The notes beneath the pieces were generated by a model. It was not told the origin of the DNA, searched no databases, and worked only from the letters and a program-made list of their open reading frames with translations. A DNA stretch of 64,000 bases, from assembly GCF_004010195.1 (NCBI RefSeq), contig NC_057718.1:7210110-7274109 (forward strand), read 5' to 3'. Position numbers and translations under genes: made by a program. This DNA comes from Chiloscyllium plagiosum (lineage: Eukaryota). Position 1 is the stretch's first letter. Each line of letters begins with the position of its first letter. Positions 13,571 through 58,073 of this stretch are shown here, piece after piece.

Positions 13571-14449
13571 GTAAGTTAATGTCTGAAGCCTAATTTGTCA
13601 GAACAGACTATGAGGTATAATGACATTGAGGGATGTCAAATAAACGCCTTATTACCATCCAGACCATCCTCTTCCAAATATAGTCAGTGGGTAGATAATG
13701 GGTGACCTGTTGGACTTTGCCTATTGTATGCATTTTCCAGTGTCAAAATTTAGCTCACATTCCAAAGCATTTTGTTTGTTGAAAATCCAGGTGACAAAAG
13801 CAGGTATATATGTACATTATGTCAAGGTCTTTTAGACTAGATAAGGATTCATAATCATGAATGCCAGCCTGGGTTTGAAGGCTGCAAGATGCACGAAAGT
13901 TTGAAGTGTTCTACTGTTTTGGAAAGTTCTGAGAAGATTGAGAGTAGAGTAGGAGCTGATTTTCCAATCTTGTTTTCCATATCTGTCCTTCACGTGCCTC
14001 CTCTATGATACCTCATGGTGTTCCTAATAATCCACCCTGTCCACTGAGATTTGAAAGTCAGATCTGGGATGAGTAGAAAACAATCTAGCTCCATCTCTGG
14101 AAACAGTCAAGGTAGAGTCAATGGCAAGGACATTGTTCCTAGTGAAAAGAATGGGCTTTAGATACTTCGGTACCCTGCTGAAGGTAATTCTGCTGGTTCT
14201 TATCAGATAATCTGATATCACAAAAATAGTCATAGGACTTTGGGAAGAGAAGAGCTTGGTGTCATCAATGCACAGTTAAAGGTGATCCCATATCTGAAAG
14301 TGTCAGTAAATTCCAACAGAACTGTCTAGAAAAGCACCTTAACTTCATCTTCATAATCTACAGATTAAGGTTAGCAGCATCAGTTGATTCCTTGGCTAAC
14401 CTTGTCCTTCTAAACTCTATGTGTTAATGTCCGGTCACCTAGATTTTCA

Positions 14450-14657
14450 GTAATGAAAAGGGTGGCGCTGGAAAAGCACAGCAGGTCAGGAAGCATCCAA
14501 AGGAGCAGGAAAGTCATGTTTCGGGCATAAGGCATGTGGCATTCTTGATGAAGAGCCTATGCCCGAAACGTTGACTCTGCTGCCTGACCTGCTGCGTGTT
14601 TCCAGCACCACACTTTTCGAAATTGATCTCCACCATCTGCAGTCCTCATTTTCTCTG
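14450..14657. mobile_element. Hairpin-type Penelope pseudo-LTR insertion (family A)
   Basis: Inverted arms GCTGGAAAAGCACAGCAGGTCAGG / CCTGACCTGCTGCGTGTTTCCAGC; degenerate hammerhead TTGATGA..GCCCGAAACGTT; AGATTTTCA duplicated at 14441-14449 and 14658-14666. Confidence 0.75.
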
Positions 14658-15583
14658 AGATTTTCAATGAAGGGAATACCAGGTCCTACCCCCAACTCTC
14701 AGCTTCTCCAATAAAATGAAAATACTGCAGATACTGAAAATCTGAAATCAAAACAGAAAAATGCTGGAGAAATTCAGTGGGCCTTGTAGCACCTTTGAAG
14801 AGAGCACAAATTTCAAATCCGTTATGATGATTTCAGAACTGAATGGGCTCAAAGATAATGGTTTTTATTTTCCATCTCCTCCACTGACAATAGTGTAAAA
14901 AATCTTATTTACAGCCTCCTGCAGTCCCGAGGAAGAGTCTTTGGATTGAAAGGTTAACTTCGTTTCTCTTTCCACAGATTCTGCTGAGACCTGCTGATTT
15001 TTCTCCAGCATTTTCTCTTTGTACCTCATCTTCACTGAGCACTACAGAGCACTTTGTCTTTTCTTTGTCAGTCAGCTCAGAACTAAGTGCTGGTTTTGCA
15101 CCATGGTTCACTCTTGCTCCCTTGTTACACCGCTTCTGCTGAAGCCCTTTCCCACATCTGGGTCACCACTGGACTTGATCTTTCCAATGCTGTACTCATA
15201 GGCGCCCAGTACTTGACCTGTACAAACTGTCAGCTGATCCAAAGCTTCGCTAACTGCCTTTGTACTGTGAAAAGTGGTTCTTTGCCTCTGTCAGTCTATG
15301 CATTCTGATTGTGGCAGAATGTTAACACACTTGAGACTCTGATGGATGCAGGGAAATGGAACAGGAAAGGGGTATACAGCAGTAAGCAGAACACACCTGG
15401 AATCCTCTTGTAGGCAAAGCAAAAATTGGAGGGCCATTCTGCGTTGCATTTAGATCCTGTATCACTTCTTCAAGATTGCTGATCTTGTATATGGTGGAGT
15501 GTGACTATTTTTGAATCACTATGGCCTTTCCTAGTTTCCTGTGTTCCAAGCTCACGTTCTGAAATTTCTCTCTGTCCTTGCAG

Positions 15584-15734
15584 GCTACCCGACACGCAGA
15601 AATGGTTGCCATTGACCAAGTCTTGAAGTGGTGTCACCAAAAGGGCAGGGACAGGAAGGAGGTGTTCGAACACACGGTGCTGTATGTCACTGTGGAGCCT
15701 TGCATCATGTGTGCAGCTGCCTTACGGCTACTGA
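15584..15734 (+). CDS. ADAT2: ADAT2 exon 3 (zinc-binding catalytic motifs)
   Basis: [50 protein letters not shown] contains the HAE and PCxxC deaminase motifs; 151 nt; followed by a GTATCCTTT donor. Confidence 0.97.
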
Positions 15735-55774: not shown

Positions 55775-56300
55775 GCTTCCAGTTGCCTGCCACTTTAACA
55801 CCCCACCCTGTTCCCTAGCCAACACCTCTGTCTCAGGCTTGCTGCAGTGCTCCAGTATAGCTCAGCGCAGGCTGGAAGAACAACACCTCATTTCCACTTG
55901 GGGACCCTGCAGCCCTCAATACTGAGTTCAGTCATTTTCGGGCCTGAACTCCCCCATGTCCCAGTTCCCTACCCCACATACCAGGCCTTGTTATCTCACA
56001 CAATCTGCCATTACACACTACCTATTGTTAGTCACTAAAAGCCCCAATTAACAGCTATTCACCCACCCAGCCAGATTGTTATCAACTCCTTTGTCCCAAC
56101 TGTTTTCTCTCTTTGGGCTCTATCCCCACCTATCAGTTACTCCTTATCTCCTCCCCACACCCTATCTTCTGCATGTGAACTGGCATTTTCCCAGCTACTA
56201 TCAGTTCTGAGGAAGGATCACCGGACCCGAAACATTAACCCTGATTTCTCTTTACAGATGCTGCCAGACCTGCTGAGCTTTTCCAGCAACTTCTGTTTTT
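55775..56300 (+). mobile_element. Penelope-like 3' end: GIY-YIG C-terminus, UTR and family-C hammerhead pseudo-LTR
   Basis: VACHFNTPPCSLANTSVSGLLQCSSIAQRRLEEQHLI..LGTLQP, then GTT-CTGAGGA-A-GGATC(ACCG)GACCC-GAAA-CA-TT-AAC at 56204-56239. Confidence 0.82.
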
Positions 56301-56364
56301 GATCAGAGAGAGACTTCCTGTTGTGTAATACAGTTATTTTTAAATGGGAACGTTTCTGCAAGTG

Positions 56365-56582
56365 TTTAGATTAGGGTGGTGCTGGAAAAGCACAGCAGGT
56401 GACGCAGCATCTGAGAAGCAGGAAAATCAACGTTTCGGGCAAAAGCCCTTCATCAGGAATAGGGCTTTTGCCCAAAACGTCGATTTTCCTGCTCCTCAGA
56501 TGCTGCCTCACCTGCTGTGCTTTTCCAGCACCACTCTGATCTAGACTCTGGTTTCCAGCATCTGCAGTCCTTGTTTTTACCG
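56365..56582. mobile_element. Hairpin Penelope pseudo-LTR pair (family A)
   Basis: Intact minus-strand core ATTC-CTGATGA-A-GGGC(TTTT)GCCC-GAAA-CG-TT-GAT at ~56425-56460; imperfect 14-bp TSD CGTTT..CAAGTG. Confidence 0.82.
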
Positions 56583-58073
56583 CGTTTTTACAAGTGAACA
56601 AGTTAAACAGCTGTGCCTTGGCCTTTAAGTTTAGAAGTTCAAGTTTGGTGGGTTTTTGTTTTGTTTGGGGAACATCCATAACTTTGAATAGCTTCTTGTT
56701 TTCATTGGGTGGTGTATCAGAAATGTTGGCTGAAGCTAGTGTGCAGAACAGTTGCTCCTGAGAAAAGGAAGTAGGTCAGAACTGTTGGATTAGGTTATTT
56801 CAGTGCAGAACGTTTAGTTTTAAACTTCAAGACCAGAAGTATTTGGTCAAAACTCTGAAGAGGTTATTTAAAGCTGAGAAAGTTTATGCCCAGTTGTAAA
56901 ACAATTGAACAAAGATTGATCAGATTCTCATGACCGTGGAGTTGAAGCCGTTGCTAAGCCAAACTCAAATGATATAGAAAAGGAAATTCTTGCTGTTGTT
57001 TGTACTGTAAAGAAATACTGTTCAGATCAATGGAATTGTAGATTGATATGTGTTTTCAAATCTTTAAACTCTGTTACAAGTAAATAGTTTGGTTTCTTCT
57101 ATTTTATCTTTGTTTCTTTTCTGTAATAAACTCCTGCTTTCTCATTAAAACCAAATCTACACATCAGTTGTTTATGTTTCAGTGAGAGACCACCTCAATA
57201 AAATCAAAACTATCAAGTCATCAGTCTGTCAAGCCAGGTTTTAGACTGGGATCTGATTTGTGCAGTAATAATATCAGCAAGGGTCATGGTAGGACGTGGT
57301 TTCAAATCCGGCCTGCCACAGAGAGTGAAATTTGAATTCATTCGTTTAAAGCTGGCAATAAAACTAGTCAGGTGGAGACCATGTAACCATTGTGGTCAAA
57401 ACCCACTGAGTTCATTAATGCCCTTCAGGATATGCCCAAAACATCAACTCTCCTGCTCCTTGGATGCTGCCTGACCTGCTGTGCTTTTCCAGCACTACAT
57501 CTCGCCCCTTCAGGGAAGGACCCAGTTACCATTTTACCATGCCCAGACCTGATTGCTCTGATCTACGTTAAACACTGCATCTCACACCTTGCGCCCTATT
57601 CCCTTGGCATCATACCCATTTTATTTTACTTACCAGGCACCCTACTCATCTTCCATCCTTACCGGTCTGACCTAAGTGGGACTCCAGATCCACACCAAAG
57701 TGGTTAACTCGCAAAGTAGTTAACTCTTATTTGCCCTCTGAAATGGACCAGCAAGACATGCTTTGTTAAAGAATTTTTTCAAAGGTTTGGGGGTGTTGCT
57801 GGTTTGACTGAGCCAGCATTTGTGGCCCATCCCTAATTGCCCAGAGGGCAGTTAGCCACATTACTGTGGGTCTGGAGTCATTGAGAGACCTGTTTCCTTC
57901 CCTGAAGGAAATTAGTGAACCAGATGGGTTTAATCTGACAATCAGCAATAGATTCATGGTCCTCAGCAGGTTCTTAATTCTGGAGTTTTAATCAAAATCA
58001 AATGCCTTCTTCGCCATGGCATGATGTGAACTTGGGTCCTCTAAACATTACCAGGGTTTCAGGATTAATAGTG

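What the first reader, a model, noticed from the sequence alone, without database searches (positions are those of the whole stretch)
14441..57514. Short ribozyme-bearing pseudo-LTR units each inserted with their own target-site duplication (retrozyme- or MITE-like behaviour)
Seen: 80-240 bp units with no coding sequence are each bounded by direct repeats: AGATTTTCA (14441/14658), GTCTCTGGATTAAT (20500/20612), ATATA(T/C)TAGAACATAG (32190/32430), CATCCTCCAT (34611/34860), GGATATGCAGGA (47441/47582), CGTTT..CAAGTG (56351/56583), CCCTTCAGG (57421/57506). Several split older SINE or CR1 copies, so they are independent insertions and not eroded remnants. Solo copies at 5697, 20514 and 47453 start within about 10 nt of the hammerhead core. 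Inference: either extreme 5' truncation of Penelope cDNA at the ribozyme, or a non-autonomous small ribozyme RNA mobilised in trans.
Basis: partly seen in the sequence, partly recalled or inferred. Interest (0 to 1): 0.72.

Follow-up and report, generated by a model that had tools for sequence, protein, structure and literature searches.

The report
Penelope retroelement stubs ending at ribozyme
These short repeats are tail-end copies of Penelope-like jumping genes, each inserted on its own, and most of them stop at exactly the same letter, the first base of the small hammerhead ribozyme they carry, which may give a handle on what that ribozyme is for.

Summary
All seven flanking repeat pairs are at the stated coordinates, and such repeats are far commoner than chance (exact match of 9+ letters in 16 of 56 insertions against 2.1% of 2,878 mismatched flank pairs).

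The units are the last 75-135 bases of endonuclease-bearing Penelope-like elements (PLEs). Longer copies elsewhere in the genome run without a break from an RT + GIY-YIG reading frame into the same sequence. They occur as monomers or as palindromic inverted dimers.

Truncation is not random. In 191 kb of unbiased sequence, 29 of 56 hits begin in one 20-base bin. Junctions bounded by target-site duplications place the end at, or within a few letters 5' of, the first base of hammerhead helix I (TC|ATTC-CUGAUGA). Genome-wide, only 697 of 2,474 anchored copies keep the four native letters upstream. A second family shows the same pattern (473 of 1,564).

No copy in the unbiased sample begins at the predicted ribozyme cut site.

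Retrozyme and MITE readings fail their defining tests. Short and long copies intermix on a tree.

My best inference, unproven, is that the fixed end is a physical 5' end of the template RNA, possibly an initiator-like start site. The kind is known; the precise end point appears unreported.

The parts
5699..5826 (+). Solo monomer. It starts 3 letters before CUGAUGA; the hammerhead core at 5702-5726 is intact (CUGAUGA...GAAAC-GUC). No target-site duplication was found.
14441..14666 (+). Inverted dimer 14450-14657 between AGATTTTCA copies (14441-14449, 14658-14666). The full arm is on + from about 14541. The partial inverted arm is at 14456-14533. The core box has decayed to UUGAUGA.
20500..20625 (+). 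Monomer 20514-20611 between 14-letter duplications (20500-20513, 20612-20625). It starts 9 letters before CUGAUGA (20523-20529) and lacks the 30-40-base tail. It is inserted in an older repeat that has an uninterrupted paralogue at L035:862-927.
20950..23794 (+). Longer Penelope-like copy interrupted by a run of N. Profile matches lie at 20950-21289, 22608-22702 and 23693-23794 (the 3' end).
32190..32445 (+). Inverted dimer 32206-32429 between 16-letter duplications (1 mismatch). The full arm starts at 32296 (CCUC-AUUC-CUGAUGA at 32304-32310). The inverted arm at 32206-32295 lacks the tail.
34611..34869 (+). Inverted dimer 34621-34859 of a second minimal-hammerhead family, between CATCCTCCAT copies. 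There is an extra CUGAUGAAGGAG stutter at the centre, and the axis lies at the hammerhead 5' edge.
39682..39932 (+). Old, diverged inverted dimer (39706-39893) between AATTTGAAAG copies (39682-39691, 39923-39932).
46877..46963 (+). More deeply 5'-truncated copy. It starts downstream of the ribozyme and carries no hammerhead.
47441..47593 (+). Monomer 47452/3-47581 between 12-letter duplications (47441-47452, 47582-47593). It starts with (A)UUC-CUGACGA; GAAA has decayed to AAAA.
55867..56302 (+). Longer copy of family E: native 3' UTR, then UCAGUU-CUGAGGA hammerhead, conserved box and a short tail.
56351..56596 (+). Inverted dimer 56365-56582 between imperfect 14-letter repeats (12 of 14). The inverted arm carries the complete 5' end (AUUC-CUGAUGA, core intact at 56432-56456 on the - strand). 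The direct arm starts inside the ribozyme.
57421..57514 (+). 76-base copy 57430-57505 between CCCTTCAGG copies. It starts inside helix II (no CUGAUGA box) and has no tail.
62902..63065 (.). Inverted dimer of family E, with its axis inside the ribozyme near GAAAC.
40944..41011 (+). Family-E fragment (3' half of the ribozyme plus the conserved box). Similar fragments lie at 46591-46652 (-) and 47134-47201 (+).

Best explanation
SHOWN. The units are the 3'-terminal 75-135 bases of endonuclease-bearing Penelope-like retroelements (PLEs). Each holds a minimal dimer-type hammerhead, a conserved hairpin box (UGCUG...CAGCA) and a 30-40-base tail. They were inserted one at a time with target-site duplications of variable length.

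Most end at one fixed point, called +1 here. It is the first base of hammerhead helix I, 4 letters before CUGANGA, in the context TC|ATTC (families A-D) or TC|AGTT (family E).

About a third of these insertions carry a second, inverted, tail-less arm whose axis lies at that same point.

INFERRED. +1 is a physical 5' end of the template RNA. The PLE reverse transcriptase, primed at a nicked target, copies a short RNA running from +1 to the element's 3' end. It runs off the template. Then either the cDNA is joined to the target (giving a monomer, sometimes with a few filler letters), or synthesis turns back on the new cDNA or jumps to another one (giving a palindromic dimer).

My preferred source of that RNA end is transcription starting at an initiator-like motif (TCA+1KTY) in the PLE 3' region, which is the pseudo-LTR. 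In that case the short RNA is made repeatedly from long copies and mobilised in trans, and it is not a lineage of its own.

The ribozyme is carried whole and uncut in these copies.
For: Identity as PLE 3' ends:
- Long copies run without a break from a coding region into the unit (L013:1551-2843 and others).
- Related frames L033:1283-3961(-) (893 aa) and L035:3746-5692(+) (649 aa) match RVT_1 (E 6e-8 and 1e-8) and GIY-YIG (E 3e-4). The ribozyme begins about 155 bases after the stop.
- The frame family is huge: 143,369 first-look candidates.

Duplications are above chance.

The fixed 5' end:
- In the window plus 13 randomly chosen 10-kb regions, 29 of 56 profile hits start in the bin holding +1. 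The neighbouring bins hold 2 and 9.
- By cluster there are 16 monomers, 8 inverted dimers, 11 shorter fragments and 8 long copies, of 43.
- Junction letters show many copies starting exactly at ATTC directly after a duplication or filler (47452, L007, L008, L010, L037, L040, L042 twice).
- Genome-wide exact counts: 2,474 anchored copies. Of these, 1,727 have C at -1, 697 have native CCTC at -4..-1, and 490 have AGCCTC. Reversed-pattern controls gave 0.
- Family E: 473 of 1,564 keep native TCA.

Signs of a template end:
- Fillers are made of the element's own sequence (L037, L042:7049).
- In 16 dimers examined, most have one arm ending within about 10 letters of +1, and in two (56360, L049) the arm with the intact 5' end is the inverted one.

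Initiator idea:
- The letters TC at -2 and -1 lie outside the ribozyme, yet they are conserved in 15 long copies of several subfamilies and again in family E, amid variable sequence.
- PLE pseudo-LTRs are known to hold the start site in Drosophila virilis (PMC2377424, passages read).

No separate short lineage.
Against: - No RNA evidence for a start at +1. The only raw-read RNA run that laid reads on the stretch (poly(A)-selected single-cell) covered the unit on both strands, with 99% of reads running on into unlike flanks, and showed no place where molecules begin or end. That library would not capture a small non-adenylated RNA, so this is weak evidence.
- No extra G at the junction that a copied cap might leave. 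C is the commonest letter at -1 (1,727 of 2,474), so many ends lie at -1 or a few letters upstream and not exactly at +1.
- The A/T-rich island about 30 letters upstream in families A-D is absent at that distance in family E.
- Three near-identical copies of a young PLE family share 5' sequence that does not begin with the unit (L050-L052). Full-length RNA of at least that family therefore does not visibly start at +1 of an upstream pseudo-LTR.
- TC before +1 also fits the UH of a hammerhead cleavage triplet, so the initiator match may be coincidental.
- How the 3' end of such a short RNA would be formed is unknown.
- The GIY-YIG matches are just under Pfam's cut-off (21.2 and 21.5 against 22.6 bits).
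Confidence: 0.45

Rival explanations
1. Enzyme-driven truncation. The template is the full-length PLE RNA, and the PLE reverse transcriptase (or the step that hands over to second-strand synthesis) stops or switches template when it has just finished copying the hammerhead. The ribozyme fold, or a protein bound to it, would act as a stop or hand-off signal.
For: The same hot-spot data apply. The end coincides with the edge of the ribozyme fold in three families of different sequence. Short and long copies share subfamilies. High 5' truncation, inverted 5' copies and a one-sided tail are described as general PLE features attributed to the enzyme (PMC8557442, passages read; PMC8969392, passages read). 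Ends are spread over -1 to -5 as well as +1.
Against: A structural block would be expected on the 3' side of a fold, before it is unwound, and not after it has been copied. Nothing obviously structured lies upstream (C-rich, variable). Own-sequence fillers and arms that end exactly at +1 look like run-off at a template end. No direct test was possible.
Confidence: 0.3
2. Self-propagating small ribozyme element. The roughly 130-base unit would be a non-autonomous retroelement of its own (SINE-like or retrozyme-like), transcribed from an internal promoter that it carries (initiator at +1 plus downstream letters) and copied by PLE enzymes in trans from master monomers.
For: The 5' and 3' ends are discrete and copy number is high (at least 2,547 first-look candidates; 2,474 + 84 anchored copies). 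Of the 10 best genome matches fetched as loci, 6 are monomers and 2 inverted dimers, at 94-100% identity to the window's monomer. Internal initiator/downstream promoters are reported for Drosophila Penelope (PMC2377424, passages). One clade of 6 copies held only copies labelled short.
Against: Short and long copies intermix on the tree (16 changes against a shuffled mean of 18.8; 55-56 of 500 shuffles as low). The tail variant tested is not linked to the short form (26% against 28% keep native upstream letters). Two of the 10 best matches to the window monomer are long copies (L004, L005). Two members of the 'all short' clade have native upstream sequence. Retrozyme features are absent (see the membership test).
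Confidence: 0.1
3. Ordinary random 5' truncation of PLE cDNA, with the apparent pile-up caused by where sequence similarity fades, and flanking repeats that are partly chance.
For: Eleven of 43 clusters are shorter fragments with scattered starts. Local alignments can end where subfamilies diverge. Three of 7 window pairs are only 9-10 letters long.
Against: Junctions bounded by duplications place the true insertion edge at +1 or within a few letters of it. Flank repeats exceed the control more than ten-fold. Exact pattern counts do not depend on alignment.
Confidence: 0.03
4. Fold-back DNA transposon or MITE: the palindromic units move as DNA.
For: Dimers are near-perfect palindromes flanked by direct repeats, and Rfam scores them as weak pseudo-miRNA hairpins.
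Against: Monomers of the same sequence have no inverted termini. Duplication length varies (7 to about 19 letters). The arms are unequal, with only one carrying the tail. The sequence is continuous with PLE coding regions.
Confidence: 0.01

Closest known systems
5'-truncated, tandem and inverted insertions of endonuclease-bearing Penelope-like elements (pseudo-LTRs, one-sided 30-40-bp 'tail'), as described by Craig et al. 2021 (PMC8557442, passages read) and Goubert et al. 2022 (PMC8969392, passages read)
   Same: An RT + GIY-YIG element. Heavy 5' truncation. An inverted 5'-truncated copy abutting the 5' end. A 30-40-base tail on one arm only (inverted arms end at about +80 to +102). Variable duplications. 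No poly(A).
   Different: The passages I read describe truncation in general terms. They do not describe a single preferred end at the first base of the hammerhead, nor units this short as the dominant form.
Minimal dimer-type hammerheads of metazoan PLEs (Cervera and De la Pena 2014, PMC4209133, parts 1-2 of the text read)
   Same: CUGANGA and GAAA boxes. An unpaired base between positions 9 and 10.1. The G10.1-C11.1 pair. No helix III loop, with a palindromic ACGU. A 4-base-pair helix I. That paper already notes that most motifs are dispersed single copies 'probably related to truncated PLEs', and that pairs occur on opposite strands 100-700 bp apart.
   Different: Here the opposite-strand pairs are directly abutting arms of one insertion, and the copy ends are mapped to the ribozyme's own 5' edge. 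The supplementary figures of that paper were not seen and may bear on this.
Metazoan non-LTR retrozymes (reviewed in PMC7761336, passages read)
   Same: Non-coding, type I hammerhead, thought to be mobilised by PLE enzymes.
   Different: Retrozymes are tandem same-strand repeats of 150-300 bp, cut at the ribozyme site into unit-length RNA that circularises. The units here have one ribozyme per strand, fixed linear ends that are not at the cut site, and no permuted junctions.
Self-cleaving ribozymes at the exact 5' end of non-LTR retroelement RNAs (HDV-like in R2 and L1Tc, twister-like in RTE; mentioned in PMC7761336, passage read)
   Same: A ribozyme sits at the very 5' end of the copied RNA.
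   Different: Those ribozymes cut at their own 5' edge and so create that end. A hammerhead of this topology cuts about 32 letters downstream of +1, so it cannot have made the end seen here.
L1 5' inversions by twin priming, and hairpin (snap-back) second-strand priming by reverse transcriptases (recalled, not looked up)
   Same: An inverted segment at the 5' side of a retro-insertion, within one pair of duplications.
   Different: Twin priming gives non-overlapping segments. Here the inverted arm repeats the same stretch as the direct arm, as snap-back or a jump onto a second cDNA would give.

Membership tests
Endonuclease-bearing Penelope-like element (PLE) | Single reading frame with a reverse transcriptase followed by a C-terminal GIY-YIG endonuclease | tested here: met
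   L033:1283-3961(-) and L035:3746-5692(+) match RVT_1 (33 and 35.3 bits, above the 29.6 cut-off) plus GIY-YIG (21.2 and 21.5 bits, just under the 22.6 cut-off) near the C-terminus. L013 gives a weak GIY-YIG match. No such frame adjoins the short units in the window.
Endonuclease-bearing Penelope-like element (PLE) | The unit is continuous with the 3' end of such an element | tested here: met
   L013, L017, L019, L020, L030, L033-L036 and L047 align from the coding region through the 3' UTR into the unit.
Endonuclease-bearing Penelope-like element (PLE) | Insertion features: 5' truncation, inverted 5' copy, one-sided tail, variable target-site duplication, no poly(A) | tested here: met
Endonuclease-bearing Penelope-like element (PLE) | Reverse transcriptase groups with PLE/telomerase-type enzymes and not with LINEs | not tested
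   No tree of the enzyme was built. A search of solved structures with the 893-aa frame found nothing.
Minimal (dimer-type) type I hammerhead of PLEs | CUGANGA and GAAA core boxes at the right spacing | tested here: met
   Intact at 5702-5726, 20523-20547 and 56432-56456(-). Decayed in other copies.
Minimal (dimer-type) type I hammerhead of PLEs | Unpaired base after A9, G10.1-C11.1 pair, helix II kept by compensating changes | tested here: met
   Read directly from CUGAUGA-A-GGGC...GCCC-GAAA. Across 11 copies, one helix II pair changes CG to UA in 4 sequences. Family E has GGGUC/GACCC and the 34621 family GGAGC/GCUCU.
Minimal (dimer-type) type I hammerhead of PLEs | No helix III loop; palindromic 15.1-16.1 (ACGU or AGCU) allowing a dimer | tested here: met
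   GAAACGUC and GAAAGCUA read directly.
Minimal (dimer-type) type I hammerhead of PLEs | Short helix I (4-5 bp) that covaries | tested here: met
   AUUC with GAAU or GAUU (families A-D); AGUU with AACU (family E). Read.
Minimal (dimer-type) type I hammerhead of PLEs | Match to curated hammerhead covariance models | tested here: not met
   No Rfam hammerhead match at gathering score or at E up to 10. This is expected for a motif without helix III, but it remains a miss.
Minimal (dimer-type) type I hammerhead of PLEs | Self-cleavage | not testable with these tools
   Needs a cleavage assay of dimeric transcripts.
Metazoan non-LTR retrozyme | Tandem same-strand repeats, so that one transcript holds two or more hammerheads | tested here: not met
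   Monomers hold one ribozyme. Dimers hold one per strand. No head-to-tail monomer arrays were seen in 43 clusters.
Metazoan non-LTR retrozyme | Unit boundaries at the ribozyme cut site, or circularly permuted copies | tested here: not met
   None of the 56 hits in the unbiased sample begins at the predicted cut site (the three starts in that 20-position bin are at 1244, 1247 and 1247). The 5' and 3' ends are fixed.
Metazoan non-LTR retrozyme | Unit-length circular RNA | not testable with these tools
   The only RNA reads available were poly(A) single-cell reads.
MITE / fold-back DNA transposon | Terminal inverted repeats on every copy and a target-site duplication of fixed length | tested here: not met
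   Monomers lack inverted termini. Duplications range from 7 to about 19 letters.
SINE | Head derived from a tRNA, 5S or 7SL gene with a Pol III promoter | tested here: not met
   No tRNA, 5S or 7SL match on the units in the Rfam scans. The unit begins with the ribozyme.

The most novel reading that the evidence does not exclude
In vertebrate PLEs the hammerhead sits at the extreme 5' end of a discrete, initiator-started RNA made from the pseudo-LTR. The roughly 130-base ribozyme-box-tail RNA would then be the element's minimal mobilisable module. The reverse transcriptase would need only this module, and the ribozyme's real job would be tied to the RNA 5' end. It could serve as a platform for run-off, turn-back and second-strand priming, or for shedding the capped leader, and not for cutting tandem precursors. 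A bolder form of this reading: monomers keep an internal promoter and can seed further copies.
Probability: 0.2. Interest if true: 0.75.

Novelty: new member of a known kind. Interest (0 to 1): 0.45.

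Why it matters
The role of the hammerhead in Penelope-like elements is openly called unknown in the reviews I read (PMC7761336 and PMC8557442, passages). This genome offers thousands of natural insertion events.

They show three things. The ribozyme is carried whole. Its cut site does not define copy ends. Its first base is the preferred 5' end of the copied molecule in at least two divergent families.

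This turns a vague question into concrete tests. Is there an RNA that begins there? Does the enzyme stop there by itself? Does the last 130 bases suffice for mobilisation?

It also matters for annotation. By simple extrapolation, one hit per about 3.4 kb in 191 kb of sampled sequence implies on the order of a million such fragments in 3.56 Gb. The palindromic dimers also mimic microRNA hairpins in covariance-model scans.

Tried and rejected
- **Rfam:** no hammerhead match at gathering score or at E up to 10. The only hits were weak pseudo-miRNA hairpins on the palindromic units.
- **RNA evidence:** no RNA holder was listed for the stretch. Laying one poly(A) single-cell raw-read run and two contig sets on 46800-47700 showed the unit inside many unlike transcripts on both strands and no place where molecules begin or end. 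A second raw-read run laid nothing. This is uninformative for a small non-adenylated RNA.
- **Reverse-transcriptase fragment in the window (42920-43468):** LINE-like (R2 and L1 ORF2 matches), not PLE.
- **5' end of full-length elements:** three near-identical loci (L050-L052) share 5' sequence that is not preceded by the unit. L033's apparent N-terminal 158 residues are a 120-base tandem repeat.
- **TATA-like island about 30 letters upstream:** conserved in families A-D but not at that distance in family E, so I dropped it as a general argument.
- **Monomer-specific marker:** the 3'-end variant CTACT looked enriched in short copies among 10 loci, but genome-wide it is not (22 of 84 against 697 of 2,474 keep the native upstream letters).
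- **A second hammerhead cut at -1/+1:** TC fits UH, but I could not draw helices I and III for it.
- **Empty sites:** no related genome is held. A contig of another organism's run (X1) spans the 5' junction of the 47452 unit, so it is a filled site. Paralogous 'empty' sites were found for 1 of 9 units.
- **Papers:** Lunse et al. 2017 is not held. Three full-text searches found no paper describing a truncation hot spot at the hammerhead edge. The library is partial, so this is not proof of absence.

Full report
**Setting.** The window is part of a 3.56-Gb, 101,977-contig animal genome. It holds two runs of N (1310-2190 and 22703-23692). In this report, +1 means the A that lies 4 letters before the hammerhead box CUGANGA (…TC|ATTC-CTGATGA…).

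**1. The observation.**
- Six pairs are exact or nearly so (9, 14, 16 with one mismatch, 10, 12 and 9 letters).
- The 56351/56583 pair matches in 12 of 14 letters.
- The enclosed units are 76-239 bases long and contain no reading frame of note.

blastn of the seven units against the window shows that six belong to one repeat superfamily. Further members lie at 5699-5826, 23693-23794, 39706-39893, 46877-46963 and 62902-63065, with several fragments elsewhere. The unit at 34621-34859 is a different family. Read directly, it also carries a minimal hammerhead (CUGAUGA-A-GGAGC-AGU-GCUCU-GAAA-GCUA).

*Chance control.* I searched all sequence held (window, random regions, loci) with a profile and kept 56 short insertions. 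Before counting I dropped:
- clusters longer than 330 bases;
- clusters reaching more than about 54 letters upstream of +1;
- clusters whose main arm did not reach the 3' part;
- clusters too close to a locus end;
- clusters with N in a flank.

For each insertion I took the longest exact word shared by its 5' and 3' flanks.

| Shared word length | Observed (of 56) | Mismatched flank pairs (n = 2,878) |
|---|---|---|
| 9 or more | 16 | 2.1% |
| 10 or more | 14 | 1.1% |
| 12 or more | 8 | 0.1% |

Four of the 56 are window places seen twice through L001. Without them the counts are 15, 13 and 7 of 52. Older duplications with mismatches are missed by this measure. So the repeats are real target-site duplications, for a sizeable part of the insertions at least.

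*Caveats.*
- The 57430 unit starts inside helix II and has no CUGAUGA box.
- Many cores have decayed, typically GAAA to AAAA at a CpG.
- No duplication was found for the 5699 copy.
- 'Several split older SINE or CR1 copies' could be shown for only one of nine units tested. The 20500 unit's host repeat has an uninterrupted paralogue at L035:862-927 with a single copy of the 14-mer.

**2. What the units are.** The window's monomer (47452-47582) has at least 2,547 first-look matches in the genome. The 40 scored are 92-100% identical (the 100% row is the window's own copy) and nearly all cover the query from position 1-3.

In two of the ten fetched loci (L004, L005) similarity continues upstream. 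Walking upstream led to copies in which the unit is continuous with about 170 bases of C-rich sequence and then a coding region (L013, L017, L019, L020 and others).

Evidence for the coding region:
- A search with that frame found 143,369 first-look candidates (148 scored).
- The open frames L033:1283-3961(-) (893 aa) and L035:3746-5692(+) (649 aa) match RVT_1 (33 and 35.3 bits; cut-off 29.6).
- Near the C-terminus they match GIY-YIG (21.2 and 21.5 bits, just under the 22.6 cut-off).
- The ribozyme begins about 155 bases after the stop codon.

This is the architecture of endonuclease-bearing Penelope-like elements (PLEs).

The short units in the window have no such frame beside them. The one reverse-transcriptase fragment in the window (42920-43468) is LINE-like. 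A longer PLE copy lies at 20950-23794, interrupted by N.

*The ribozyme.* It meets the features that Cervera and De la Pena (2014; PMC4209133, parts 1-2 of the text read) list for minimal PLE hammerheads:
- CUGANGA and GAAA boxes;
- an unpaired base after A9;
- the G10.1-C11.1 pair;
- no helix III loop, but a palindromic ACGU (AGCU in the 34621 family);
- a 4-base-pair helix I.

Helix II is kept through different sequences: GGGC/GCCC, GGGUC/GACCC and GGAGC/GCUCU. One pair changes on both sides in 4 of 11 aligned copies. Helix I also covaries: AUUC with GAAU/GAUU, and AGUU with AACU.

Rfam's hammerhead models did not match, even at E up to 10. This is expected for a motif without helix III, but it is still a miss. 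Cleavage was not tested.

**3. Anatomy of insertions.** I built a profile from 17 natural long copies. I ran it on an unbiased sample: the window plus 13 regions of 10 kb at random coordinates (seeded script; fetched; 191 kb without N). It gave 56 hits in 43 clusters.

| Cluster type | Count (of 43) |
|---|---|
| Monomers ending near +1 | 16 |
| Inverted dimers | 8 |
| Shorter fragments | 11 |
| Copies reaching well upstream | 8 |

Hit starts fall into profile bins as follows:

| Profile positions | Hits starting there |
|---|---|
| 1-1153 | 10 |
| 1154-1173 | 0 |
| 1174-1193 | 2 |
| 1194-1213 (holds +1) | 29 |
| 1214-1233 | 9 |
| 1234-1253 | 3 |
| 1254-1273 | 3 |

No hit starts at the predicted ribozyme cut site, which is after GUC, about 32 letters downstream of +1.

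That the pile-up is a true insertion edge, and not a fading of similarity, is shown by junctions where a duplication or foreign sequence directly abuts ATTC:
- 47452, L007, L008, L010, L040:114 and L042:4783;
- with 2-14 filler letters in L046, L037 and L042:7049.

A smaller class starts 4-5 letters further upstream (CCUC-AUUC; 20514, 32296).

*Genome-wide exact pattern counts* agree. They anchor on +1..+14 and on the 3' end; reversed-pattern controls gave 0 matches throughout.

| Pattern | Copies | Share |
|---|---|---|
| Anchors only | 2,474 | 100% |
| C at -1 | 1,727 | 69.8% |
| Native CCTC at -4..-1 | 697 | 28.2% |
| Native AGCCTC at -6..-1 | 490 | 19.8% |

. In the unbiased sample, 8 of the 32 clusters that contain +1 extend further (25%).

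A second family, family E, has a different ribozyme sequence. Its native context is TCAGTT-CTGAGGA in two long copies. Of 1,564 anchored copies, 473 (30.2%) keep the native TCA. Its short copies begin at positions -1 to +3.

The centre of the 34621 dimer, a third family, also lies at the 5' edge of its ribozyme.

*Inverted dimers.* I examined 16.
- They have one full arm with the 3' tail and one inverted arm that stops at about +80 to +102, so it lacks the last 30-40 bases.
- In most, at least one arm ends within about 10 letters of +1. blastn over-extends across the palindromic centre, so these figures are approximate.
- In 56360 and L049 the arm that carries the intact 5' end is the inverted one, and the direct arm starts inside the ribozyme.

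One duplication pair encloses the whole dimer: 14441, 32190, 34611, 39682, L003 and L020.

Heavy 5' truncation, an inverted 5'-truncated copy at the 5' end and a one-sided 30-40-base tail are published PLE traits (Craig et al. 2021, PMC8557442, passages read; Goubert et al. 2022, PMC8969392, passages read).

**4. Retrozyme, MITE or separate lineage?**

*Retrozyme.* Metazoan retrozymes are tandem same-strand repeats cut at the ribozyme site into circularising units (review PMC7761336, passages read). Here there is one ribozyme per strand. The ends are fixed and linear and do not lie at the cut site. No head-to-tail monomer arrays appeared in 43 clusters.

*MITE.* A MITE reading fails on variable duplication length (7 to about 19 letters), on monomers without inverted termini, and on continuity with PLE coding sequence.

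*Separate lineage.* I looked for a lineage of short copies with its own diagnostic changes and found none.
- A 3'-end variant (CTACT instead of CTCCT) seemed enriched in short copies among ten loci. Genome-wide it is not: 22 of 84 against 697 of 2,474 keep the native upstream letters.
- I built a maximum-likelihood tree of 63 copies (23 long, 40 short). These were hits covering nearly the whole unit, with duplicates L001, L011 and L023 and rows with N left out. Long copies came mostly from targeted searches. The tree needs 16 changes of the long/short label against a shuffled mean of 18.8. Between 55 and 56 of 500 shuffles were as low.
- The alignment is only 132 columns, so power is low.
- One clade of 6 copies held only 'short' labels. 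Two of its members have native upstream sequence.

**5. How it most likely works.**

*Shown:* PLE-type retro-insertions of the element's last 75-135 bases; a sharp preferred 5' end at the first base of helix I in at least two families; dimers whose axis lies there; the ribozyme carried uncut.

*Inferred:* +1 is a physical end of the template. Three observations favour this.
- Run-off signatures: fillers made of the element's own sequence, and turn-back arms.
- The position of the end, after the ribozyme has been fully copied. A structural block would be expected before it.
- The same relative position in families of different sequence.

My preferred source of the end is transcription from an initiator-like motif.
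- The letters around +1 are CTC-A-TTCC in families A-D, and ATC-A-GTTC or GTC-A-GTTA in family E. Both fit the initiator consensus TCAKTY/YYANWYY, which I recall and did not look up.
- The TC at -2 and -1 lies outside the ribozyme, yet it is conserved in 15 long copies amid variable sequence.
- In Drosophila virilis Penelope, the start site and an internal initiator/downstream promoter lie in the pseudo-LTR. There, however, the intron begins 46 bp downstream of the start site and is 75 bp long (Schostak et al. 2008, PMC2377424, passages read), and it ends at the 5' edge of hammerhead helix I (PMC4209133), which puts the start site about 120 bases upstream of the ribozyme.

*Against this:*
- The only usable RNA reads show no starts. 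They are poly(A) single-cell reads, so this is weak.
- There is no cap-derived G at junctions, and C is the commonest letter at -1.
- The A/T-rich island near -30 in families A-D is missing in family E.
- Three near-identical young copies share 5' sequence that does not begin with the unit.
- TC also fits the UH of a hammerhead triplet.

The main rival is that the PLE enzyme itself stops or hands over at the ribozyme's 5' edge on long RNA. I cannot exclude it.

**6. Novelty.** The element type, the ribozyme type, dispersed single motifs 'probably related to truncated PLEs', opposite-strand pairs, and inverted or tailed insertions are all in print (PMC4209133, PMC8557442). What I did not find in print is the end point: the first base of helix I, in two divergent families, and distinct from the cut site.

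I ran three full-text searches. Lunse et al. 2017 is not held. The supplements of PMC4209133 and PMC8557442 were not seen.

I therefore file the units as new members of a known kind. The fixed end is a modest but testable lead on the unexplained role of PLE hammerheads.

Noticed in passing
window 42920-43468 (+): An open 183-aa stretch with an RVT_1 match (E 8e-10). Its closest solved relatives are R2 and LINE-1 ORF2 proteins, so it is a LINE-type fragment unrelated to the hammerhead units.
   Followed up: partly
window 32243-32355, 39730-39832, 56388-56521, 62951-63035: The palindromic dimers score as weak pseudo-miRNA precursors in Rfam (E 3e-4 to 0.05, far below gathering scores). This is a likely source of false microRNA calls in this genome.
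   Followed up: no
L033 (reverse strand), about 3086-3644: The 5' region of a PLE copy holds a tandem array of a 120-base unit, which inflates the apparent N-terminus of the 893-aa frame. Other copies match only from residue 159 on.
   Followed up: partly
L046:5600-5960: The 5'-region sequence of a young PLE family is joined directly to fragments of the 3' unit in both orientations. This may be an internally deleted, non-coding PLE derivative.
   Followed up: no
alignment A1 (11 copies), columns 31-34 with 55-58: RNAalifold predicts a pairing of the cleavage-site letters CGUC with GGAUG about 20 bases downstream, kept with one-sided changes only. It would hide the cut site in a monomer.
   Followed up: no
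window 20001-24000: Strongly negative GC skew (-0.29) and low GC (0.37) around the long PLE copy and the run of N. Odd long open frames lie at 21215-22413.
   Followed up: no
window 60136-60615 (-): A 159-aa open stretch with a weak Calreticulin-family match (E 5e-4, 19.7 bits, below the 25-bit cut-off).
   Followed up: no
window 47165-47506, run X1: A 342-base contig from a run labelled as another organism spans the 5' junction of the 47452 unit with 14 differences. That insertion is therefore shared (a filled site) in that source.
   Followed up: no
L002:219-348 and L002:1505-1626: Two copies of the unit in one locus share the same upstream flank letters, which suggests a local segmental duplication and not two separate insertions.
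   Followed up: no
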